A DNA stretch of 64,000 nt from an uncultured Alphaproteobacteria bacterium (GTDB taxonomy: Bacteria > Pseudomonadota > Alphaproteobacteria > CAAHEQ01 > UBA3637): the NCBI GenBank assembly GCA_937935995.1, contig CALGXF010000011.1, positions 246 through 64,245 of the forward strand. Direction: 5' to 3'. Made by a program: the position numbers and the translations under genes. The notes under the pieces were generated by a model, which worked only from the letters and a program-made list of their open reading frames with translations, did no database searches and was not told the DNA's origin. Positions 1,750 through 60,799 of this stretch are shown here, in pieces; the first letter of the stretch is position 1, and each line of letters begins with the position of its first letter.

Positions 1750-3483
1750 ATGCTGCGCCGCAAAAAGACTCCTTATTACTACGTCGGTCAGGAAATCCCG
1801 ACTTCATCCAACGATCGGTATCGTTTTTTAGATAAAACAACCGTCAGCGCATTAAAAACCGGCCGGTTTCGGATGCTGTTGGTTGCTTATTTGTTTTTAA
1901 TCGCCTTTGCCGTTTTAAGTGTTCGACTGTTTGAACAAACCATCTTAAAGAAAAATACCTCGCGCCCCCAACACAGCATGCTTGTTGCCGGAGACTTGCC
2001 GGTCAATCGTGCCGATATTGTGGATCGCAACGGCACGATTTTGGCAACCAGCCTGCCAACCGTCGATTTATATGTGGATGCACGCGATATTTCAAACCCG
2101 GAACAAATGGCGCGCGACATCTTAAAAATTCTGCCGACACTGGACAAAGAAGATTTATTGGAAAAATTAAAATCACAATCCAGTTTTAAATACTTAAAAC
2201 GGAACCTGACGCCCAAAGAACAATATGCCATCAACCGGCTGGGGTATCCGCAACTGAATTTTACCGACGGCGAACAACGCATTTATCCGCAAAGCCATTT
2301 ATTTTCCCATATCATCGGCCTTACCAACATTGACAACAAAGGCATTGCCGGTCTTGAAATGGCCTTTCATCAACGATTAACGACAGACAAACACCCTTTA
2401 CAGCTTTCCGTAGACACCGGCGTTCAAAACATTATCCGGTACGAACTGACCAAAGCCATGGATACATTCAGCGCTTCCGCCGGAGCCGCTCTTGTCATGA
2501 ATGCGCAAAACGGTGAAATCATTGCTTTAACGTCTTTACCTGATTTTGATCCGAATCGACCGTCCACACGAACAGATTATAATATTTTTAACCGAGCAAC
2601 TTTGGGGTTATACGAAGTCGGCTCTGTCATGAAACCGTTCACGGTTGCAATGGGTTTGGAAACGGGTTTAATTACGCCCAATGACCGAGTAGATGCCACC
2701 AAACCGCTTCGTTTGGGACGCTTTACCGTGACGGACTTTCAAGGGAAAAACCGATTTTTAACCATTCCGGAAGTGCTGATTTATTCATCCAATATCGGTT
2801 CGGCCAAAATCGGCATGGCTGTGGGCGTAGACGAGCAAAAAGCCTTTTTGGAAAGATTTGGATTATTGTCTGTTGTCCCGTGTGAACTGCCTGAACGCGG
2901 TCGGCCGATTCAACCGGATGTTTGGCGAGAAGTCAACGGAGCGACTATTTCTTACGGATACGGCATTGCGGTCTCTCCATTGCACATGGCAACCGCTGTC
3001 AGTGCTTTGGTTAACGGCGGATTATATCGGCCGCCGACTTTTTTGAAAAACGGAAACAAAGACACGCCGGCCACGCAAATTATTTCACCGAAAACGTCTC
3101 AAATCTTAAGACACATGATGCGCGCCGTCATTGATATCGGTTCCGGTAAACGCGCAAACATCAAAGGGTATCTGGTGGGCGGCAAAACCGGATCCGCCGA
3201 AATGCAGGATTTACACGGCCGATATATCAAAGGGACACTTCGCACATCGTTTGTCGGTGCTTTTCCGATGGACAATCCGCAATATGTTTTGTATGTTATG
3301 TTGGAAAACCCGAAAAAACGAAAGGAAGATTGGTACTTTAATACAGCCGGGTGGAACGCTGCCCCGACAGGCGGTGCCATGATTGAAGCCATCGCGCCTC
3401 ATTTAGGCGTTACACCCAAAGAAGAGCTTGAAAAGCCCTCCTATATTGAAGTAGCTTATGAACAGTATAAACCCAAAAAATAG
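1750..3483 (+). CDS. ftsI: Peptidoglycan D,D-transpeptidase FtsI (PBP3)
   Basis: 577 aa. N-terminal TM. SVMKP-like active-site region (GSVMKPF), SSN and KTG motifs (YSSNIG, GGKTGSAE) of class B PBPs. Confidence 0.9.
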   Translation: MLRRKKTPYYYVGQEIPTSSNDRYRFLDKTTVSALKTGRFRMLLVAYLFLIAFAVLSVRLFEQTILKKNTSRPQHSMLVAGDLPVNRADIVDRNGTILATSLPTVDLYVDARDISNPEQMARDILKILPTLDKEDLLEKLKSQSSFKYLKRNLTPKEQYAINRLGYPQLNFTDGEQRIYPQSHLFSHIIGLTNIDNKGIAGLEMAFHQRLTTDKHPLQLSVDTGVQNIIRYELTKAMDTFSASAGAALVMNAQNGEIIALTSLPDFDPNRPSTRTDYNIFNRATLGLYEVGSVMKPFTVAMGLETGLITPNDRVDATKPLRLGRFTVTDFQGKNRFLTIPEVLIYSSNIGSAKIGMAVGVDEQKAFLERFGLLSVVPCELPERGRPIQPDVWREVNGATISYGYGIAVSPLHMATAVSALVNGGLYRPPTFLKNGNKDTPATQIISPKTSQILRHMMRAVIDIGSGKRANIKGYLVGGKTGSAEMQDLHGRYIKGTLRTSFVGAFPMDNPQYVLYVMLENPKKRKEDWYFNTAGWNAAPTGGAMIEAIAPHLGVTPKEELEKPSYIEVAYEQYKPKK

Positions 3484-3493
3484 GACATATCGA

Positions 3494-6313
3494 ATGCGCT
3501 TATCAGAACTTTTTCACTTTGCAAAAATCGCTCTTCCCATTGAAAACGATGTCGAAATTCAAGGATTAGCACGCGATTCTCGGGAAGTCAAACCCGGTTA
3601 TTTGTTTGCCGCCATGGACGGGTATCAAGGCAGCGGCATCGATTATGTCAATGAAGCCGTTCAAAACGGTGCTGTGGCTGTTTTAACGAACCACCCCAGT
3701 TTGGAAACAAGTGTCCCTGTTTACTATGTCGACCATATTCGCGAAGCGCTGGCCTTGATGAGCGTCGGTTTTTACCAACCACACCCGCAACACTTGGCTG
3801 CCGTCACGGGAACAAACGGCAAAACGTCGACTGTTTTCTTTTTGCGGCAAATTTGGGAATACGCCGGACATAAAAGCGCCAGTTTAGGTACGCTCGGCGT
3901 TCAGTCCGAAGGATACATACATTACAGCGGCATGACCACCTCTGCCAGCGTAACATTAAATCAGGAATTACAAGCTGTGGCACAAACCGGTGTCACACAT
4001 GCTGCTTTGGAAGCATCCAGCCACGGACTGGATCAACATCGTTTGGACGGGTTGACATTCGAAGCAACAGCTTTTACAAATCTGACTCGTGATCATTTGG
4101 ACTACCATAAAACGATGGAAAATTATCTGAAAGCCAAAATGCGGCTTTTCACGGATTTAACGGCCGAAGGCGGAACTGTTGTTTTAAACGCCGACATTCC
4201 GGAATTTGACAGAATGGATAAAACGTGTCGTTTTCACGGATTAAAAGTATTATCTTACGGACAAAACGGCCAAGCATTGCGATTGGTAAAACAAACACTC
4301 CATGAAGCCGGACAAGATTTAACCGTCAACATCCTTGGTAAAACTTATGACATAAAACTGCCGGTTGCCGGCGCTTTTCAAGGCATGAATATTTTATGTG
4401 CTTTAGGTTTGGCCATCGGAACGGGTATCCCTGCCGAAACGGCCGTACAGGCACTTCAAACCATCAAAGCACCTGACGGACGAATGGAATTGGTCGGCCG
4501 GACACAGGAAGGAGCCAGTATTTTTGTTGATTATGCGCATACACCGGACGGATTGGAAACGGCGTTAAAATCATTGCGCCATCACACACAAAATAAATTG
4601 CATGTTTTATTCGGATGCGGCGGCAACCGAGACATTGGTAAACGGCCGATTATGGGAAAAATCGCCGGAGAATTGGCTGATGAAGTCATTGTGACGGACG
4701 ACAATCCCCGCTTTGAAGATGCGGCCGAAATCCGCCGCCAGATTTTATCGGCGGTTCCTCAAGCCACAGAAATTGACGACCGGGCAGTTGCCATTTACAC
4801 AGCCATCTCTCGGTTAAAGGCCGGCGATGTACTGCTTTTGGCCGGAAAAGGGCATGAAGAAGGCCAGCTGATTAACGGCATGATGTATACGTTTAATGAC
4901 CGGATTCAGGCTTTGTTAGCGTTAAAAGCATTAAAAGAAAAACCGCTGTGGACCAAACAGGAATTACAAGAAGCGACCGGCGGTATTTTGCCGGAAAATA
5001 TCCGGGCTTACGGCGTATCGATTGACACACGGTCATTACAACCGGGCGACCTTTTTATTGCCCTCAAAGGCGATAAACTGGACGGACACACGTATGTTGA
5101 ACAGGCCCTGAAAAAAGGAGCCGTTGCGGCCATCGTCGATCATCCGATGGTTATCCCCGATTCAGACAAGTTGTTGGTCGTTCCCGACACAGGCAAAGCT
5201 CTTTATCAAATGGCAACTTATGCCAAAAATGCAAGCAAAGCCATCCGCATCGGTATCACCGGCAGTTCCGGGAAAACAACGTCCAAAGAAATGCTTGTGC
5301 GCGCCCTTTCCACGCAAGGAAAAGTCCACGCAACCGCCGGCAATCTGAACAACGAATGGGGTGTTCCTTTAACATTGGCGCGTTTGCCGAAAGATGCCGA
5401 TTATGCCGTTATCGAAATGGGAATGAATCACGCGGGGGAATTAACACGCCTGTCTCAATTGGTGGAACCCAAAATCGTTCTCATAACAATGATTGGCTCT
5501 GCCCATCGGGAATTTTTCAAATCAGAAGAAGAAATTGCCGCCGCCAAATCCGAAATCTTTTCGCACATGATGCCGGATGGAACGGCTGTTTTGAATGCCG
5601 ATTCGCCGTTTTTTGATTTTTTGAAGCAAAAAGCGGATTCTTACGGTGTTCATTCCATTTTGTCTTTCGGGCAAAACAGTCAAGCGGACAGCCGTCTGAT
5701 TGATATGCAAACACAGGCCGGACGGACAACCGTTCAGGCAAACGTATCCGGCACGCTTTTGACTTTCACCATGAACCTGTGCGGATTGCACTTTGTTCAA
5801 AACGCTTTGGGCATATTAGCGGTTGTCGCCGCCGTTCAGGGCGATTTATCCAAAGCTGCCGACGGTCTGGCCGGCATGTCTGCCGTCAAAGGGCGCGGCG
5901 CTTTTATTCAAACCGTTTATCACGGAAAAGCCCTCACCGTTATTGATGATGCGTATAATGCCAATCCGTCTTCAATGGCAGCCTCTCTTTCCGTGCTGGG
6001 GACACAACCCGGCCGTAAAATTGCCGTTTTGGGAGATATGTTGGAATTGGGGGAATTCGCGGAAACTTTGCATACAAATTTAGCAGATAATTTGCTGGAA
6101 ATTCAAGTTGATAAAGTGTATGCTGTAGGCGAGATGATGAAAAAGCTTTATGAAAAACTGCCGCAAAATCAGCAAGGTGCTTGGGCCGAAAAAGCATCCG
6201 ACATTTTACCGGCGTTGGAAAAAGAGCTGCAATCCGGTGATACCGTTTTGGTCAAAGCGTCTAATGGCATAAAGCTTTATGAAATCGTCAAAGTCTTAAC
6301 AAGTGGGAATTAA
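3494..6313 (+). CDS. murE-murF: Fused UDP-MurNAc-tripeptide synthetase MurE / UDP-MurNAc-pentapeptide synthetase MurF (single 940-aa reading frame)
   Basis: The N half carries the MurE signature (GTNGKTST P-loop, DNPR motif). The frame runs without a stop or restart through ...FNDRIQALLALKALKEKPLWTKQELQEATGG... into a full MurF half with a second P-loop (GITGSSGKTTSKE). I checked the junction codons at about 4900-4960 directly and found no stop or start. Confidence 0.8.
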   Translation: MRLSELFHFAKIALPIENDVEIQGLARDSREVKPGYLFAAMDGYQGSGIDYVNEAVQNGAVAVLTNHPSLETSVPVYYVDHIREALALMSVGFYQPHPQHLAAVTGTNGKTSTVFFLRQIWEYAGHKSASLGTLGVQSEGYIHYSGMTTSASVTLNQELQAVAQTGVTHAALEASSHGLDQHRLDGLTFEATAFTNLTRDHLDYHKTMENYLKAKMRLFTDLTAEGGTVVLNADIPEFDRMDKTCRFHGLKVLSYGQNGQALRLVKQTLHEAGQDLTVNILGKTYDIKLPVAGAFQGMNILCALGLAIGTGIPAETAVQALQTIKAPDGRMELVGRTQEGASIFVDYAHTPDGLETALKSLRHHTQNKLHVLFGCGGNRDIGKRPIMGKIAGELADEVIVTDDNPRFEDAAEIRRQILSAVPQATEIDDRAVAIYTAISRLKAGDVLLLAGKGHEEGQLINGMMYTFNDRIQALLALKALKEKPLWTKQELQEATGGILPENIRAYGVSIDTRSLQPGDLFIALKGDKLDGHTYVEQALKKGAVAAIVDHPMVIPDSDKLLVVPDTGKALYQMATYAKNASKAIRIGITGSSGKTTSKEMLVRALSTQGKVHATAGNLNNEWGVPLTLARLPKDADYAVIEMGMNHAGELTRLSQLVEPKIVLITMIGSAHREFFKSEEEIAAAKSEIFSHMMPDGTAVLNADSPFFDFLKQKADSYGVHSILSFGQNSQADSRLIDMQTQAGRTTVQANVSGTLLTFTMNLCGLHFVQNALGILAVVAAVQGDLSKAADGLAGMSAVKGRGAFIQTVYHGKALTVIDDAYNANPSSMAASLSVLGTQPGRKIAVLGDMLELGEFAETLHTNLADNLLEIQVDKVYAVGEMMKKLYEKLPQNQQGAWAEKASDILPALEKELQSGDTVLVKASNGIKLYEIVKVLTSGN

Positions 6314-20070: not shown

Positions 20071-20472
20071 TTATGAAGCATATGTGTTGAATGTAATCAC
20101 ACCGTTTTCAATTGTAACTGTACCACCGGAACGATTGTCCATCGCTTCCAAAACTTTGTCAGAAGCGCCAGTAACTGTTACGACCGGTTGATCGACTTCC
20201 GTTGCAGCAGATGTAATGCTGATGCCTGTTGCACCGCCCGGAATGGTTTCACCATCCAAAATGGCTTTACAGTCACCTGTTTCCATTTGGGAACCATCAC
20301 CGTTTGTTTGAGCAACAACAACGCAACGGGATGCATAGTCCAAAATCGTGTTGGCCCGATGGCGGTTCATCGCCATTGTGTAACCGGCCAGACCACCGAT
20401 GGACAACACACCGATAATCGCCAAAACACCCAACATTTCAATCATTGAACGACCAGCTTCAGTTTTTTTCAT
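20071..20472 (-). CDS. Type IV pilin-like protein (candidate major pilin; class III prepilin leader)
   Basis: 133 aa. Leader MKKTEAG, then a predicted cleavage site, then RSMIEMLGVLAIIGVLSIGGLAGY. Glu sits at +5 after the Gly, with a hydrophobic alpha1 helix. The C-terminal half carries a Cys pair (D-region like). Confidence 0.75.
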   Translation of the reverse strand: MKKTEAGRSMIEMLGVLAIIGVLSIGGLAGYTMAMNRHRANTILDYASRCVVVAQTNGDGSQMETGDCKAILDGETIPGGATGISITSAATEVDQPVVTVTGASDKVLEAMDNRSGGTVTIENGVITFNTYAS

Positions 20473-20549: not shown

Positions 20550-20637
20550 GAAAATCACAACCGTTTACACGATTTTCATTTCTTGAATACAAAAATACGC
20601 CCGGCTTCCTTAATAAAGAGTAAAAAAGCCGGAAAAA

Positions 20638-21086
20638 TTACGTTTTATCGATAAAATCAGGTTCTTGCACATGAAGAGCGCCGTTTAAAAGCAACTTTAA
20701 GTATTCTATTTTATGCAAAACTTCTTTTTTCCCCAATTCGGAATGAGCTGTTTCCAATTCTTTTTCGGCTTCTTGCAAATCATGAGTCGCTTTTTGCGGA
20801 TTAATTTTATTCAAATCAACTCCCCACGCCAAAACGGAACAAATATTCCGCCGAACTTCGGCAATGCCGCGAGAGACAAAGTAACAAACGGGCTTTTCAC
20901 CTTTATTGTAAATCCACAACGCTCCCGGAACAATAAAGAAAAAAGACGGCGCTCGGTTTTTTAAAATCATCACATCCCCGCCCAAAGCCGGCAATAAAAC
21001 CTTATCCGCCACCGTATCCACCAATGACTGCGTCGGGCAGATTAAATGGAAATTCATTTTGCCTTGAACTTTCAGATTTTCAGGCA

Positions 21087-21087
<1 letters not shown>
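20638..21087 (-). CDS. atpC: F1 ATP synthase epsilon subunit
   Basis: 149 aa. Beta-sandwich N domain plus a helical hairpin. Immediately downstream of atpD with overlapping stop and start. Confidence 0.8.
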
Positions 21088-23606
<2,519 letters not shown>

Positions 23607-23610
<4 letters not shown>

Positions 23611-25430
23611 TTTTGATTTTTCTTTTCAACAAACGTTTGAACAAATTCTTTTAAAACAGAATCGAGCCGTTTCTCCAACCGTTCATCCAAAGCCGTCGCT
23701 TTCCCGATTTCATTGATTAAATCCGGCTCATCCAATTGAAGGTGCTCTAACAATTCTTCTTCAAATTTTAAAATATCCGCAGGCGCCAATAATTCCAAAT
23801 ATCCTTTAACGGCCGCATAAATCGATATAAATTCCTGTTCAAACGACAAAGGATGATGCAGCTTTTGTTTCATCATTTCCGTGATTCGAACCCCTTTTTT
23901 CAACATGTTTTGGCTGGAAACGTCCAAATCTGAAGCAATTTGCGCAAATGATAACATTTCTCGGTATTGAGCCAAATCCAATTTTAAAGAAGAGGCAATC
24001 TTCGCCAACAAAGGCCGTTGCGCTTTCGACCCCACCCGGCTGACCGATAAACCGACATTTACGGCCGGGCGCACACCCTCGTGGAATAAGCTGCTTTCCA
24101 AAAAAATCTGACCGTCCGTAATGGAAATCACATTGGTCGGAATATAGGCCGACACATCGCCTTCTTGCGTTTCAACGACCGGAATAGCCGTCAACGAACC
24201 ACCGCCTTTGTCATCACTCATCATCGCAGCCCGCTCCAACAACCGGGAATGCAGATAAAAAATATCTCCCGGATAAGCTTCTCGACCGGGCGGACGACGC
24301 AACAATAAAGAAATTTGACGATACGCATTCGCATGTTTTGATAAATCATCATAAAAAACAACGGCATTCATTTTATGATCCCGGAAATATTCCCCGATGG
24401 TACACCCCGTAAACGGTGCCAAATATTGCAAAGACGCCGAATCGGATGCTGATGCCGAAACAACCGTTGTATAATCCATTGCACCGAAATTTTGCAAAGT
24501 CCGAACAACATCCGCCACCGTTGAAAGCTTTTGACCGATGGCCACATAAATACAATAAAGCTTCTCTTCCGGTTTGCTGGCCAACGCATTTTGTTCCTTT
24601 TGGGCAATAATCGAATCAATAATCAAAGACGTTTTACCCGTTTGACGATCGCCCACAATCAATTCACGTTGCCCCAATCCAATCGGCACCAGAGCATCCA
24701 CAACTTTTATTCCCGTTTGAAACGGTTTTTGAACAGATTGTCTGTCCACAATACCGGGAGACGGCGTCTCCAACGGCATAAACAATTCCGTATTTAAATC
24801 GCCCTCACCGTCAATCGGATGTCCTAACGCATCCACAACCCGGCCGACCAGCGCTTTTCCAACCGGTACCGTTACGACGTTTCCCGTTTGAACGGCTAAA
24901 TCGCCTTCTTCCAAACGGCTGTCATCCCCCAACACAACAACATCCGAAAATTCTGGATTCAGATTAAAGACAATCCCTTGAAGCCCTTCCGGAAAATCAA
25001 TCAGTTCTCCGGCACGCGTCGCACGCATCCCGGCAACCCGGGCAATTCCGTCTTTAACCGAAACAACGCGCCCGACCTGTTCAACACGGGGTTGCATTTT
25101 TTCATCTTGTAATAATCGTTTCAGCAAATCTTCAAATGCTTCCTTTGATAAATTCGCCAAAGACACATCTTGCAACGCTTTTTGCAGTAAACTTAATTTC
25201 CGCTTCACGGAAACGTCAATCAGCGAAGATCCGATTTGCAGTTGAAAACCGCTCAATAAATGCGTATCAATCTTGATATTCAGATGAACCGTCTTGATTT
25301 TCAGCTTTTCACCGATGAGCCGAATCAAGCGTTTTTTTTGCTCTTCCGACAACGGATAAGCCGCCGTTACATCGACGGTTAATTCTTCAAATACAAAGTC
25401 TGTTTTCTTTTTCACAGGCATTTTCAACAC
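23607..25430 (-). CDS. atpA: F1 ATP synthase alpha subunit preceded in frame by a delta (OSCP) C-terminal domain remnant
   Basis: Residues ~110-607 are canonical alpha (GDRQTGKT P-loop). The first ~100 aa match the delta subunit C-terminal domain, written here with E. coli AtpH residues in parentheses after the corresponding residues of this ORF: VDVT(S)AYPLSE(Q)... KID(KS)... IDV(GS)SVKR(GR)L. A TAA lies 3 codons upstream of the GTG start, and the SixA-like gene takes up the space where the delta N-domain should be. Confidence 0.85.
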
Positions 25431-25501
25431 CCCTTTTTATTCATCTTTTGTTTTAACACGAACCATTTCGAGGTGCAAGACCAAACACTTAAAAAAACAG
25501 A

Positions 25502-26011
25502 TTAAGGCGAAAAAATTTCATCCAAAACCGCCTGTTTATAATTAAAGCCGACCCACCGCGTATCGTCTTTTAACCGCAGGCGGATTAACGTGCAAGGTGT
25601 CACATGCAGTGATTGAGGCAGCAAATTGCTTTCTTTTTTCAACAACAGATAAACCAAATTCGTTAAAGACGTTTCATGGCCTAAAATTAAAATATGGCAG
25701 ATTGAATCATCCACCAAATTTAAAAGCTCCAACAAAGAATATTCAGACGCCAAGTACAAATAATCATGATAAACAATACGTGCATTCGGAAAATAAGGCT
25801 TTAAATAAGCACACGTCTGTCTGGCTCTTTTTGCTTTGGAACAAAAAATGACTTCCGGAGCAATCGGATGCTTTTTCAAATGATCACACAAAACGATCAA
25901 ACGCTTCTTTCCCCGCTCTGACAAAGGACGCTCAAAATCCATCAGCGATGTTTGAAGGCGCCGGCCGCCGGCATGACGCAACAAGTATAATACTTTTTCC
26001 TGCTTGGCCAC
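25502..26011 (-). CDS. Histidine phosphatase superfamily protein (SixA-like phosphohistidine phosphatase)
   Basis: 169 aa. LYLLRHA... PLSERGKK... LILGHETSL pattern of branch-1 histidine phosphatases. Confidence 0.55.
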   Translation of the reverse strand: MAKQEKVLYLLRHAGGRRLQTSLMDFERPLSERGKKRLIVLCDHLKKHPIAPEVIFCSKAKRARQTCAYLKPYFPNARIVYHDYLYLASEYSLLELLNLVDDSICHILILGHETSLTNLVYLLLKKESNLLPQSLHVTPCTLIRLRLKDDTRWVGFNYKQAVLDEIFSP

Positions 26012-28968: not shown

Positions 28969-30681
28969 ATGAGACACACACTCACACAAAAACAAGAACA
29001 AGGCTCTTTAATGGTAGAAGTCTTGGCTGTACTCGGGCTGATTGCCCTGATTACGCCTTTGTTGTACCAGCAAATCAATCGGCGGAACGAGGAAATTTCA
29101 AACGCCAATATCGCGACGGAAGTTCGTACGATTAAGGATGGTGTGACGGCCTATATTCAATCTTATGAACAACGATTGGCGGCGCAAGATTGTAACTTAA
29201 TGTTAAACGGCGAATATAAAAACGTCACCACCATTCAACAATGTACATCGGCGGAAGGTTCATACAGCGATGAATTGCAAGGAACGGGTTTCTATCCGGG
29301 TATTGATGAAATTTTGGATGATTATGACATTAATTTGTTTGCTTACACATTACCTGCCGGTTATCAAAAATTTGATGAAAACGAAGATGCCCGGGTTCAG
29401 GTATATCGCCCTGTCATTTACGGCGTAATTACCGAAAAAGCCGTGGATGAAAACCGGCCGTTAAGACGGTCTGCCAAAATTGCTTCCTTAATCGGATTGG
29501 ACGGCGGCGTTGTTATGGGAAACGTCATCAACGGGATGGATGGGACTTGGATTGTCGAAAACACAATGGATGCTCCGGAACGCGGCATTGCGGCGATTAC
29601 GGCTTATGATGCGGCCACCAATTCCGCCCTTTTAACGGATGTTAAGATTGAACACTTTCGCGGGGATACGTTACAAGCCAACATCGGTGTGACGGATCGG
29701 TTGCACGCACCGACATTCTTTTCGGTTGGTGACATGACTTATAACTGTGTTGAAAACTACGGAAATGATACGCTGGATATTCGCAAGTCCGGCGATACCA
29801 TCACCGGAGAAGACGGCAGCAGTGTTGTGTGTGCGCCGTTATTTGAAGTAGATGCCGAAACCGGAAAAATCAAAATGAAAGAAGGAAATATCGAAACAGA
29901 TTTGGTTGCTTTTTCGTCTTCTTCCAGCTCTGATGATAACACGAAAGCGGCATTAACGCCCAACAGCGGCATCAATATAAGCGATTTATCGGAAGACGGA
30001 GAATATGCCGTTTACCAAATTGATCCGGCGTATACATCCGTGATGAACGACATTAAATTGACGTCACGCGGCGGAGCGCGGCTCAGCGACATTTTACCGA
30101 CTTATATTAACAAAGGCATCACACCGATTTCCGGAAGCGGTTCGGTTGCTTACCCCAGCTGTCCGGTCGGTTATGCGCCCGCCATTGCCGTTATTCCGAC
30201 ACAGATTGATTTGTCAAAAGCTCGGCTCAACACGGATAATTTTCACACGCCGGTATCCAGTTCGAATTTAAGCGTGTCGACCAGTACATCTGTCGCCGGG
30301 AATACTGTTCCTTTAACGAAAACGACAGCAACTGTCAGCGGCACTTCTGTTTTAACGGACGTCACGACATCCAGCCACGGACACTCTGCGACATCAACAT
30401 CTACCGTTCAAAGCACGAACCTTGATTTAGAACGTAAATCAACGGCAACAAGCGATTTTTCTCAAGCCGGTCATCGCGTTCGAATCGGTACCAATGCAGA
30501 GGCAACGGAACAAGCGGCAACGAACACAACCGCAAACGTATCCGGTTCTTGGACTGTCACTTTGGAACAAGAAACCGAATCCGGATGGGAAACGTCGACA
30601 GATTCAAAAGCGCTTGTTTACACATATTGCTATTACGATTCAACGGCGTTTAATACACCGACACGTGTCAGACCCGACTAA
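28969..30681 (+). CDS. Large type IV pilin-like (pseudopilin/minor pilin-like) protein with Ser/Thr-rich C-terminal region
   Basis: 570 aa. Leader MRHTLTQKQEQG, then a predicted cleavage site, then SLMVEVLAVLGLIALITPLLYQQ, with Glu at +5 and a hydrophobic helix. The C-terminal 150 aa are rich in S and T. Confidence 0.6.
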   Translation: MRHTLTQKQEQGSLMVEVLAVLGLIALITPLLYQQINRRNEEISNANIATEVRTIKDGVTAYIQSYEQRLAAQDCNLMLNGEYKNVTTIQQCTSAEGSYSDELQGTGFYPGIDEILDDYDINLFAYTLPAGYQKFDENEDARVQVYRPVIYGVITEKAVDENRPLRRSAKIASLIGLDGGVVMGNVINGMDGTWIVENTMDAPERGIAAITAYDAATNSALLTDVKIEHFRGDTLQANIGVTDRLHAPTFFSVGDMTYNCVENYGNDTLDIRKSGDTITGEDGSSVVCAPLFEVDAETGKIKMKEGNIETDLVAFSSSSSSDDNTKAALTPNSGINISDLSEDGEYAVYQIDPAYTSVMNDIKLTSRGGARLSDILPTYINKGITPISGSGSVAYPSCPVGYAPAIAVIPTQIDLSKARLNTDNFHTPVSSSNLSVSTSTSVAGNTVPLTKTTATVSGTSVLTDVTTSSHGHSATSTSTVQSTNLDLERKSTATSDFSQAGHRVRIGTNAEATEQAATNTTANVSGSWTVTLEQETESGWETSTDSKALVYTYCYYDSTAFNTPTRVRPD

Positions 30682-59395: not shown

Positions 59396-60799
59396 TTACT
59401 TACAAAAAGCGTAACCTATGCCACTACTATATGGCATACTTGTAACGAATCCATCCCAAGTAACAGCTAGAAGGTAGTCTTCTTTATAAGAAACATTTGT
59501 CCAAATAAAATGTCCGCCCTCCCCAAGAGTTACATTGGGACAGTTTTGTTCACCACCGTAATAAACGGTTCCATTCCAATCAGGACACAACTCTTCTAAA
59601 GTTGCCATATTTAATCCCTGTTCCTCACACGCGGTGACAATATTACTTACAGGCGACAAGTATTCATATGTATTCGGATCCCAAGCACTTTCCCACTCAA
59701 CGCTACAAAATTGCTCCCCATTATTTAGCGTATAAATATCACCATTTTCACAAAAGACTGTTCCGATACATACGCCTGCTTGACATGTCCCGGACTGATT
59801 GTCGGTTGTCGTACAGGCGGTTCCGTCAGCGACATTCGTTAATGTCGGACAAGTTCCGCTCGTGGCCACCGTCACCGTTTGACATGCCGTCGCCGTTAAC
59901 TCTTCACAACATTGACCCGCCGTTTCATTGTACGTTGAACCATTTTCACAATCCGGACGACACGTCCCGTCACTTTGACATGTTCCATCACACGTCGGTG
60001 TACATTTTGGCGGCGTAATCGGATTTAACGAACAACTTTCTTGCGTCGTTCCCGGATGATAACAACAGCCATGTTCATTCAAGGCTTCGTCAATCAAAAT
60101 AGTTATTGTTCCGACTTCTTTTGTCGGACGACCACACACATCCTCCGGCCCCGTCAAAGCACAACAACTTTCTCCGTCACAAGTTTCCGCGGCCGGACAT
60201 GGTTCACATGTACTGACAGAACAATACGTATCTTCTGCACATGTGATTTTCTTTACCGTCACACAACCGTTTTCATCCATCACATTCTCTGTCAGATTAC
60301 AATCTTGCGTCACCGTTATATTCTCACATAGGTCTTCCGGTTCCATTCCGCTGCCTGAACCGCCGGATGTCCCGCCCGATGAAAGGGAACCATCGTATAA
60401 AAACATAAAGCCCATCGTTTGGGAACCTGAACAAGTCGTATGCCCTTCCGAACCAACATAAATCTCTTCTATCGACGTATCATCAACAGTCATGATTTTA
60501 TCACATACTTTTTCCGATACGTCCGATACAGTTACGACAAAACCATTGGCATATGTTGTCGTATCAATCCCGAATGTCATGCCGGACTGCGGGTAAAAAT
60601 CTGAAGGCACTGTATCTTTGCCCGTGTCCATGACATGCAATGCCAATAAATGCACATCATGGTAAATGCTGTTGGCTTTGTGTTTATCCAGAGCATATCG
60701 AAATCCCATCAAGGCTGCCACACTTAACACCCCGATAATCGCCAAAACAGCCAACATTTCCAAAAGTGTCCGGCCGTGTTGTTTGGTTTTAAAATCCAT
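59396..60799 (-). CDS. Giant Cys-rich type IV pilin-like protein, paralog 2, with C-terminal lectin-like domain
   Basis: 467 aa. Leader MDFKTKQHG, then RTLLEMLAVLAIIGVLS. An SGGTSGGSGSG linker and a Cys-rich module. The C-terminal ~90 aa are homologous to the stand-alone secreted protein at 31649-32014 (ELCPDWNG... NCP... AVTWDGF... C). Confidence 0.7.
   Translation of the reverse strand: MDFKTKQHGRTLLEMLAVLAIIGVLSVAALMGFRYALDKHKANSIYHDVHLLALHVMDTGKDTVPSDFYPQSGMTFGIDTTTYANGFVVTVSDVSEKVCDKIMTVDDTSIEEIYVGSEGHTTCSGSQTMGFMFLYDGSLSSGGTSGGSGSGMEPEDLCENITVTQDCNLTENVMDENGCVTVKKITCAEDTYCSVSTCEPCPAAETCDGESCCALTGPEDVCGRPTKEVGTITILIDEALNEHGCCYHPGTTQESCSLNPITPPKCTPTCDGTCQSDGTCRPDCENGSTYNETAGQCCEELTATACQTVTVATSGTCPTLTNVADGTACTTTDNQSGTCQAGVCIGTVFCENGDIYTLNNGEQFCSVEWESAWDPNTYEYLSPVSNIVTACEEQGLNMATLEELCPDWNGTVYYGGEQNCPNVTLGEGGHFIWTNVSYKEDYLLAVTWDGFVTSMPYSSGIGYAFCK

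What the first reader, a model, noticed from the sequence alone, without database searches (positions are those of the whole stretch)
25120..25501. ATP synthase delta subunit reduced to its C-terminal domain and translationally fused to alpha
The atpA reading frame opens with ~100 aa that align to the C-terminal, b-subunit-binding domain of delta/OSCP. Delta's N-terminal alpha-binding domain (~75 aa) is absent. The space upstream holds only 70 nt before a convergent SixA-like gene, and a TAA sits 3 codons before the GTG/ATG start. Either atpH suffered a 5' deletion and the remnant is carried as an N-terminal extension of alpha, or the true atpA start is the internal ATG (MQPRVEQ) and the remnant is a pseudogene. 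A full-length atpH elsewhere would be expected if the enzyme is functional.
Basis: seen in the sequence. Interest (0 to 1): 0.55.

Follow-up and report, generated by a model that had tools for sequence, protein, structure and literature searches.

The report
Natural delta-C-domain/alpha fusion in ATP synthase
An uncultured alphaproteobacterium makes its ATP synthase alpha subunit with the stalk-binding half of the delta subunit fused to its front end; engineers built the same design in 2025 to give the enzyme up to three stator stalks and twice the protons per ATP.

Summary
On the minus strand, one ORF (23607..25421, 604 aa from the ATG) encodes the delta/OSCP C-terminal domain (aa 13-86), a 6-aa linker, then a complete alpha subunit that keeps its N-terminal helix. 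The delta N-terminal domain is absent from the whole 64-kb window.

It is neither an assembly error nor a pseudogene. The exact protein sits in a 30-member cluster seen on dozens of independent contigs. Syntenic relatives at 57% identity keep the fusion, with synonymous sites saturated. The internal Met is not conserved and has no Shine-Dalgarno sequence.

The protein is collinear, gap-free across the junction, with PDB 9jc1. That is the engineered Bacillus PS3 deltaDeltaN-alpha fusion, which assembles up to three peripheral stalks and a-subunits and doubles H+/ATP (Ueno et al., Nat Commun 2025). That paper already noted natural fusions in Acidaminococcus. The window's alpha and beta are alphaproteobacterial, and the Firmicutes-type fusion loci rank last in similarity, so this is an independent origin.

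Verdict: a new (alphaproteobacterial) member of a recently recognised kind. The fusion is shown. More than one stalk is inferred. Whether a free atpH exists elsewhere in the genome could not be tested.

The parts
23607..25421 (-). Fused deltaDeltaN-alpha gene (604 aa plus stop). The alternative upstream GTG start is at 25430.
   Evidence: ORF. Pfam OSCP C-terminal part plus three alpha domains. TIGR00962 at 718 bits. The exact 604-aa product is in a 30-member cluster.
25428..25435 (-). Shine-Dalgarno-like AAGGGGTG, 8 nt upstream of ATG 25421.
   Evidence: Sequence read. A similar AAGGGA precedes the ATG of the relative L081.
25386..25421 (-). Short N-terminal tail (aa 1-12), predicted disordered.
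   Evidence: AlphaFold pLDDT below 50 for aa 1-10.
25164..25385 (-). Delta/OSCP C-terminal (b-subunit-binding) domain, aa 13-86.
   Evidence: Pfam PF00213 positions 102-172 of 172. Paracoccus delta 5dn6_H residues 115-187 of 188, E 9e-11. Local delta HMM positions 108-179 of 181. Predicted four-strand sheet plus two helices.
25146..25163 (-). Linker SLANLS (aa 87-92) joining the delta C-terminus to alpha.
   Evidence: Aligns column for column with the GGSGGS linker region of the engineered chain 9jc1_I. Predicted coil.
25086..25145 (-). Retained alpha N-terminal helix (aa 93-112). It contains the non-conserved internal Met109 (25095..25097).
   Evidence: TIGR00962 from model position 4. Alignments to normal alphas start at their residues 2-15. 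Helix 93-105 in the model. No SD before Met109.
23610..25085 (-). Alpha core: beta-barrel crown, nucleotide-binding domain and C-terminal domain (aa 113-604).
   Evidence: PF02874, PF00006, PF00306. PDB alpha chains at E about 1e-180.
25422..25501 (-). 80-nt spacer between the SixA-like stop and the fusion ATG. It holds no remnant of the delta N-domain.
   Evidence: Sequence. Six-frame delta HMM search of the window found nothing.
25502..26011 (-). SixA-like histidine phosphatase gene, co-directional and upstream. This neighbour is conserved in relatives.
   Evidence: PF00300 and TIGR00249 weak hits. Orthologue upstream of the fusion in L081/L082.
22537..23610 (-). atpG (gamma, 357 aa). Its start overlaps the alpha stop (ATGA). 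It carries a clade-specific 59-aa insertion at 22792..22968.
   Evidence: PF00231. Alignment with gammas of 80 loci, median 298 aa; the insertion is shared only with the fusion-bearing relatives. Coordinates.
21087..22526 (-). atpD (beta, 479 aa from the ATG).
   Evidence: Pfam. 83% identical to L081 beta and 70-73% to alphaproteobacterial MAGs.
20638..21087 (-). atpC (epsilon, 149 aa).
   Evidence: PF02823.
20600..20633 (-). Terminator-like hairpin plus T-run that closes the F1 operon.
   Evidence: 13-pair stem followed by a T-run. This is a consensus match only.

Best explanation
This is a genuine, expressed and selected gene fusion. The 5' half of atpH, which encodes the delta N-terminal domain that caps F1 and binds the alpha N-termini, was deleted. 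The atpH stop and atpA start were also lost. Every alpha subunit is therefore made with the b-binding delta C-domain attached covalently, through a 6-residue linker, to its own N-terminal helix.

How it works:
- The covalent bond replaces the non-covalent delta-N/alpha contact that normally fastens the peripheral stalk to F1. A free two-domain delta is then dispensable.
- All three alphas carry a docking site, and the symmetry-breaking delta N-domain is gone. The enzyme is therefore expected to be able to bind more than one b-dimer/a-subunit stator.
- More stators would raise H+/ATP and lower the proton-motive force needed for ATP synthesis. This was measured for the engineered Bacillus PS3 deltaDeltaN-alpha enzyme.

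What is shown: the fusion, its domain boundaries, its conservation, and its collinearity and structural match with the engineered chain.

What is inferred: loss of free delta from the genome, binding of b, and above all the presence of two or three stalks. I put more than one stalk at about 0.45.
For: Domain anatomy.

Not an artefact: the exact 604-aa protein is in a 90%-identity cluster of 30 members, mostly 604 aa, from NCBI, Logan and ENA, on dozens of contigs up to 126 kb. L083 is 99.3% identical with the same ORF.

Selection, window against the syntenic relative L081:
- Delta C-domain: 57% aa identity; nucleotide identity at codon positions 1/2/3 of 0.55/0.77/0.35; dN 0.40 with dS saturated.
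- Both differences in this domain between the window and L083 are synonymous.

The fusion is also present in further lineages: L086/L087, P0002, P0009, and the more distant L089, which also has a YgjP-like neighbour.

Invariant residues G58, D69 and S71 of the delta C-domain are kept in all fusions.

Match to the engineered design:
- Window aa 20-149 align without a single gap to 9jc1_I residues 10-139, and aa 20-598 align in one stretch.
- The AlphaFold model of aa 1-235 (pLDDT 69; 70-86 in the domains) finds 9jc1 chains I, K and J as the top three PDB hits over 213-219 columns. Ordinary alphas reach about 97-157 columns.

Function of that design: up to 3 stalks and 3 a-subunits, H+/ATP 5.8 against 3.0 (PMC12229609).

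Complete operons a-c-b-[dCTD::alpha]-gamma-beta-epsilon without atpH exist in Firmicutes-type loci L084 and L085.
Against: Only 64 kb of the genome is visible. The Fo genes (a, c, b/b') and any second atpH lie elsewhere and could not be examined.

No stoichiometry can be read from sequence. In the engineered enzyme most cryo-EM particles had lost stalks.

The retained alpha N-terminal helix could in principle still bind a free delta N-domain.

Two relatives carry a single in-frame TGA in alpha. This could be read as relaxed selection on the enzyme in this clade, although everything downstream of the TGA remains well conserved.

The AlphaFold model has moderate confidence (pTM 0.48).
Confidence: 0.75

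Rival explanations
1. Covalent anchor only. The fusion replaces free delta, but the native complex still assembles a single peripheral stalk and one a-subunit. Supply of b/a, c-ring size or assembly factors might set that limit. Two of the three delta C-domains would stay unoccupied and H+/ATP would be normal.
For: Nothing in the sequence fixes the stalk number. In the engineered enzyme, single- and double-stalk particles predominated and triple-stalk particles were rare. Fo genes are not in the window.
Against: In the engineered enzyme, removing the delta N-domain and fusing was enough to roughly double the average a and b content and H+/ATP. Chloroflexus shows that natural F1Fo can carry two stalks and two a-subunits (PMC12002316). 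The same design recurs independently in two phyla, which suggests a selected property beyond mere attachment.
Confidence: 0.35
2. A normal full-length atpH exists elsewhere in the genome and forms the real stator cap. The fused delta C-domain would then be an accessory or regulatory appendage.
For: The genome outside the 64-kb window was not searchable. The alpha N-terminal helix that binds the delta N-domain is retained.
Against: atpH is normally immediately upstream of atpA: all 80 comparison loci have it there. That slot is the one occupied by the truncated copy. No delta N-domain signal exists anywhere in the window. Firmicutes-type fusion operons are complete and lack atpH. Three fused C-domains would compete with a free delta for b.
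Confidence: 0.1
3. Decaying pseudogene remnant. Alpha really starts at the internal ATG (MQPRVEQ), and the upstream 108 codons are untranslated or non-functional.
For: An in-frame ATG exists at 25097. Relatives show in-frame TGA codons in alpha.
Against: The Met is not conserved; it is Leu or Ile in relatives. No SD precedes it. It would cut off the conserved alpha N-helix. The upstream part has an SD plus ATG that is conserved in relatives. It shows 57% aa identity at saturated dS with no frameshifts or stops.
Confidence: 0.02
4. Assembly or sequencing artefact: a missing segment or a lost stop codon between atpH and atpA.
For: None beyond the a priori possibility in a MAG contig.
Against: The same 604-aa ORF occurs in about 30 sequence variants from three independent assembly sources on dozens of contigs. 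It also occurs in divergent relatives from other samples.
Confidence: 0.01

Closest known systems
Engineered deltaDeltaN-alpha fused Bacillus PS3 FoF1 (PDB 9jc1; Ueno et al., Nat Commun 2025, PMC12229609)
   Same: The architecture is the same: delta residues about 105-178, a short linker, then alpha from about residue 2. The delta N-domain is deleted. The window protein aligns gap-free across the junction and in one stretch over the full length. The three 9jc1 chains are the top three structural matches.
   Different: The window protein is natural, not designed. Its components are alphaproteobacterial: about 35% identity in the aligned N-terminal part, and the best delta hit is Paracoccus. The linker is SLANLS rather than Gly/Ser. 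Epsilon is full length. Gamma carries a 59-aa insertion. Stalk number and H+/ATP are unmeasured.
Natural deltaDeltaN-alpha fusions noted in Acidaminococcus fermentans (UniProt D2RLW6), G4Q3K6 and A0A1I2C5T3 (PMC12229609). Firmicutes-type loci L084 and L085 found here belong to this type.
   Same: The delta C-domain is fused to alpha, there is no delta N-domain, and there is no separate atpH in the operon.
   Different: Those have a single a-c-b-[fusion]-gamma-beta-epsilon operon and an extra N-terminal helix of about 25 aa. The window has the alphaproteobacterial split F1 operon and only a 12-aa tail. The window's alpha core and beta are least similar to them among 85 loci (54-55% and 64-67%, against 62% and 70-73% to alphaproteobacteria). 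This indicates independent origin.
[quoted passage not shown]
   Same: It is a natural F-type enzyme in which alteration of the delta N-domain goes with more than one stator. Its delta C-domain is homologous (E 1.7e-6).
   Different: There, delta is a free subunit with a shortened N-domain that dimerises on top of F1. Here there is no N-domain at all and the link to alpha is covalent.
Mycobacterial b-delta fusion (PDB 7jg5_d) and the N-ATPase b subunit with a delta-like C-terminus (TIGR03321)
   Same: The delta C-domain is fused to a neighbouring stator subunit. Both match the window's delta part.
   Different: The fusion partner is b, not alpha, and the stoichiometry remains one per complex. 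The mycobacterial protein keeps the delta N-domain.

Membership tests
deltaDeltaN-alpha fused F-type ATP synthase (engineered 9jc1; natural Acidaminococcus type) | The delta C-terminal domain and alpha are encoded in one reading frame, with delta at the N-terminus. | tested here: met
   Single ORF with no stop. One-stretch alignment to 9jc1_I.
deltaDeltaN-alpha fused F-type ATP synthase (engineered 9jc1; natural Acidaminococcus type) | The delta N-terminal (F1-capping) domain is absent from the polypeptide. | tested here: met
   Only OSCP profile positions 102-172 match. Only 12 residues precede the domain. In-frame TAA upstream.
deltaDeltaN-alpha fused F-type ATP synthase (engineered 9jc1; natural Acidaminococcus type) | There is no separate full-length delta gene. 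| tested here: inconclusive
   None in the 64-kb window in any frame, and none in the canonical slot upstream of atpA.
deltaDeltaN-alpha fused F-type ATP synthase (engineered 9jc1; natural Acidaminococcus type) | There is more than one peripheral stalk and a-subunit per complex, with raised H+/ATP. | not testable with these tools
   Needs biochemistry or cryo-EM. Known only for the engineered enzyme.
Canonical F1 alpha subunit (TIGR00962 atpA) | The score exceeds the curated cut-off over the full model. | tested here: met
   718.4 bits against a cut-off of 484.45, model positions 4-502 of 503.
Canonical delta/OSCP subunit (TIGR01145 / PF00213, two domains) | [quoted passage not shown] | tested here: not met
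   TIGR01145 scores 53.5 bits, below its cut-off of 57.5, with only positions 103-172 matched. No N-domain is present.
N-ATPase (alternate F1Fo, atpDCQRBEFAG) | Alpha and beta match the alt_F1F0 models above cut-off, and the operon has the N-ATPase gene order without delta. | tested here: not met
   TIGR03324 scores 534 bits, below its cut-off of 750.5. The operon order is alpha-gamma-beta-epsilon.
Mycobacterial-type b-delta fusion | Delta is fused to the C-terminus of a b subunit. | tested here: not met
   No ATP-synt_B domain or transmembrane segment precedes the delta C-domain.

The most novel reading that the evidence does not exclude
An uncultured, probably gut- or rumen-associated alphaproteobacterial clade has independently evolved a natural multi-stalk F1Fo ATP synthase. 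It would have two or three b-dimer/a-subunit stators docked on three alpha-borne delta C-domains, with a co-evolved gamma insertion, giving roughly 2-3 times the usual H+/ATP. This would be convergent with Negativicutes, and it would lie in the bacterial class from which mitochondria derive.
Probability: 0.4. Interest if true: 0.8.

Novelty: new member of a known kind. Interest (0 to 1): 0.6.

Why it matters
H+/ATP was long thought to be set only by c-ring size. In 2025, work on an engineered delta-C/alpha fusion and on Chloroflexus showed that the number of stators also sets it. Natural delta-C/alpha fusions have so far only been mentioned for Acidaminococcus and two UniProt entries, and none has been characterised.

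This locus adds:
- a second, independently evolved lineage (Alphaproteobacteria);
- many sequence variants for comparison;
- a syntenic clade in which the event is old;
- an accompanying gamma-subunit insertion.

It gives experimenters a natural test case for two questions: whether multi-stalk F-ATP synthases exist in the wild, and whether they are an adaptation to low proton-motive force.

Tried and rejected
1. Rfam scan of the window for rRNA or other markers to place the organism: no hits.

2. Exact look-up of the beta ORF from its TTG start: not on record because the start was wrong. The gamma look-up worked.

3. Genome-collection scan. The host genome, its Fo operon and any second atpH could therefore not be inspected.

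4. Protein database searches returned only short or interrupted fusion products. The window's own 604-aa cluster, which is in the collection, was not returned. Counts of natural fusions from these searches are therefore biased and were not used quantitatively.

5. TGA reassignment in relatives was considered and rejected. In-frame TGA occurs only in alpha, and TGA also ends genes there.

6. Promoter scan of the SixA-atpA spacer: no consensus site, so uninformative.

7. N-ATPase and b-delta fusion identities were considered and rejected.

Full report
**What is there**

The ATP synthase F1 genes lie on the minus strand: a SixA-like gene (25502..26011), a long "atpA" ORF, atpG (22537..23610), atpD (21087..22526) and atpC (20638..21087). 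A terminator-like hairpin follows.

The long ORF runs from a GTG at 25430 (607 aa). An ATG at 25421 is preceded at 8 nt by AAGGGG, and independent gene calls use it as the start, giving 604 aa. All numbering below uses the 604-aa form.

- Pfam places OSCP (delta) profile positions 102-172 of 172 at the N-terminus, at 51 bits against a cut-off of 22. The three alpha domains follow.
- The atpA equivalog model TIGR00962 matches from its position 4, so alpha is complete and keeps its N-terminal helix.
- The anatomy is: a 12-aa tail; the delta C-domain at aa 13-86; the linker SLANLS; the alpha N-helix at aa 93-112; the alpha core at aa 113-604.

I built a full-length delta HMM from 17 deltas of comparison loci and ran it against all six frames of the 64-kb window. 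It hits only this ORF, at HMM positions 108-179 of 181. No trace of a delta N-domain exists in the window.

The corrections are:

- The genes are on the minus strand.
- The SixA-like gene is co-directional, not convergent.
- The delta part is about 74 aa.
- The internal Met (M109) lies inside the alpha N-helix.

**Real, or an artefact or pseudogene?**

The exact 604-aa sequence is in the public protein collection. It sits in a 90%-identity cluster of 30 members, most of them 604 aa. These come from NCBI, Logan and ENA assemblies, on dozens of contigs up to 126 kb. One such contig (L083) differs at 14 of 1815 nt. Both differences in the delta part are synonymous.

A syntenic relative (L081/L082) has the same neighbours: YgjP-like, SixA-like, then gamma, beta and epsilon. 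It carries the same fusion. Across the delta C-domain the two share 57% aa identity. Nucleotide identity at codon positions 1/2/3 is 0.55/0.77/0.35, and dN is 0.40 with dS saturated. That is the signature of purifying selection on a translated sequence.

Further lineages also have the fusion: L086/L087, P0002, P0009, and a more distant alphaproteobacterial group. That group includes P0020, which NCBI names "Alphaproteobacteria bacterium", plus P0162/L089 and P0015.

The internal Met is Leu or Ile in relatives and lacks a Shine-Dalgarno sequence. The pseudogene/internal-start reading and the assembly-error reading are both rejected.

All 80 loci retrieved from species-representative genomes have a separate full-length atpH directly upstream of a normal atpA. 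Their best alpha identity to the window is 58%, and the best-matching loci are mostly alphaproteobacterial. The fusion is thus a derived state of one clade.

**What it works like**

A literature search found Ueno et al. (Nat Commun 2025, PMC12229609). They deleted residues 2-104 of Bacillus PS3 delta and fused residues 105-178 through a short linker to the alpha N-terminus. Their reasoning was that the delta N-domain sits on the pseudo-threefold axis and limits the enzyme to one peripheral stalk. The results were:

- up to three b2 stalks and three a-subunits in the engineered enzyme;
- about 2-fold more a and b on average;
- H+/ATP of 5.8 against 3.0;
- ATP synthesis at half the proton-motive force.

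The deposited fusion chain (9jc1_I) aligns with the window protein in a single stretch, aa 20-598 against 10-577. It is entirely gap-free through the junction, aa 20-149 against 10-139. The natural SLANLS lies on the designed GGSGGS.

An AlphaFold model of aa 1-235 was built from an 18-sequence alignment (mean pLDDT 69; 70-86 in the folded parts). It shows these elements in order:

- the four-stranded sheet plus two helices of a delta C-domain;
- a short coil;
- the alpha N-helix;
- the beta-barrel.

Its three best PDB matches are the three 9jc1 fusion chains, over 213-219 columns. Ordinary alpha chains align over only about 97-157 columns.

The mechanistic reading follows directly. The covalent bond substitutes for the delta-N/alpha contact. 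Each alpha offers a b-docking site, and nothing occupies the symmetry axis. The fusion as stator anchor is well supported. More than one stalk is an inference from the engineered analogue. It is also supported by the natural two-stalk, two-a-subunit enzyme of Chloroflexus (PMC12002316).

**Relation to known natural cases**

Ueno et al. already noted that Acidaminococcus fermentans (D2RLW6) and two other UniProt entries have a deltaDeltaN-alpha fusion, and they predicted natural multi-stalk enzymes. I found Firmicutes-type loci of that kind (L084, L085). Their operons read a-c-b-[dCTD::alpha]-gamma-beta-epsilon, with no atpH.

The window differs in several ways:

- It has the alphaproteobacterial split F1 operon.
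- Its delta part is most similar to Paracoccus delta.
- Its alpha is most similar to mitochondrial and alphaproteobacterial alphas.
- Among 85 loci, its alpha core and beta are closest to alphaproteobacterial MAGs (62% and 70-73%) and least similar to L084/L085 (54-55% and 64-67%).
- The Firmicutes type also carries an extra N-terminal helix of about 25 aa.

The two groups are therefore best explained as independent fusions. I found no paper describing the alphaproteobacterial case.

The protein is not an N-ATPase: TIGR03324 scores below its cut-off and the operon order is wrong. It is not a b-delta fusion either.

**Limits**

The Fo genes and the rest of the genome could not be examined. "No free delta" is shown only for the canonical slot and for the 64-kb window. 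Stalk number cannot be read from sequence.

The database searches returned mostly truncated or interrupted fusion products and did not return the window's own full-length cluster. I therefore make no claim about how common natural fusions are.

The habitat is inferred only from the names of the nearest MAGs (rumen and gut) and from sample labels. It was not verified.

**Verdict**

This is a real, conserved delta-C-domain/alpha fusion. It is a new, independently evolved alphaproteobacterial member of a kind recognised in 2025. I put about 0.4-0.45 on it forming a natural multi-stalk ATP synthase.

Noticed in passing
window 22792..22968 (-), within atpG: Gamma is 357 aa, against a median of 298 aa in 80 comparison loci. 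The difference is a 59-aa insertion ([11 protein letters not shown]...LLKEGTRP) just before the C-terminal helix. It is shared and conserved only in the fusion-bearing relatives (L081/82 and L086/87, gamma 360 aa). It may have co-evolved with the fusion. Its position recalls the chloroplast and cyanobacterial gamma insert.
   Followed up: partly
L081 3988..3990 (also L082); L086 codon 215 of the fusion gene (also L087): Two relatives each have a single in-frame TGA in the fused alpha gene, at different sites that are I/L or L/V in other sequences. Each was seen in two independent samples. The sequence downstream is fully conserved, and the neighbouring genes have no in-frame TGA. The cause could be readthrough, a split alpha or recent nonsense alleles; it is unexplained. 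The search tools appear to surface interrupted forms preferentially.
   Followed up: partly
database proteins P0006, P0008, P0012, P0019, P0022; P0004, P0005, P0016: Some free proteins of about 145 aa consist of two tandem delta C-domains with no N-domain. Some full-length deltas carry one or two extra C-domains (Pfam OSCP in 2-3 stretches). These may be other natural routes to several b-docking sites per enzyme.
   Followed up: partly
database protein P0096 (297-aa fragment): This fragment appears to be a triple fusion. A b-like transmembrane N-terminus (ATP-synt_B, 23.7 bits, below cut-off) is followed by a delta C-domain and then the start of alpha.
   Followed up: partly
window 3458..6313 (+): A 951-aa ORF in the dcw cluster holds two complete sets of Mur-ligase domains. 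This is an apparent MurE-MurF fusion, a second gene fusion in the same genome.
   Followed up: partly
window 20071..20472 (-), 32031..33449 (-), 59396..60799 (-), 28969..30681 (+): Several proteins have a type IV pilin/pseudopilin-like N-terminus (GRTLLEMLGVLAIIG...). N_methyl (PF07963) was detected in one of them. Some are unusually long (about 470-570 aa), and one has EGF-like repeats.
   Followed up: partly
window 42781..46073 (+): A VirB2/VirB3/VirB4-like type IV secretion gene set. The CagE_TrbE_VirB domain was confirmed for the 821-aa protein.
   Followed up: partly
window fusion aa 20-85 (607-aa numbering) against TIGR03321: The C-terminus of the N-ATPase b subunit model (positions 180-244 of 246) matches the delta C-domain (E 9e-5). 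N-ATPases, which lack delta, therefore seem to carry a delta-C-like module on b.
   Followed up: no
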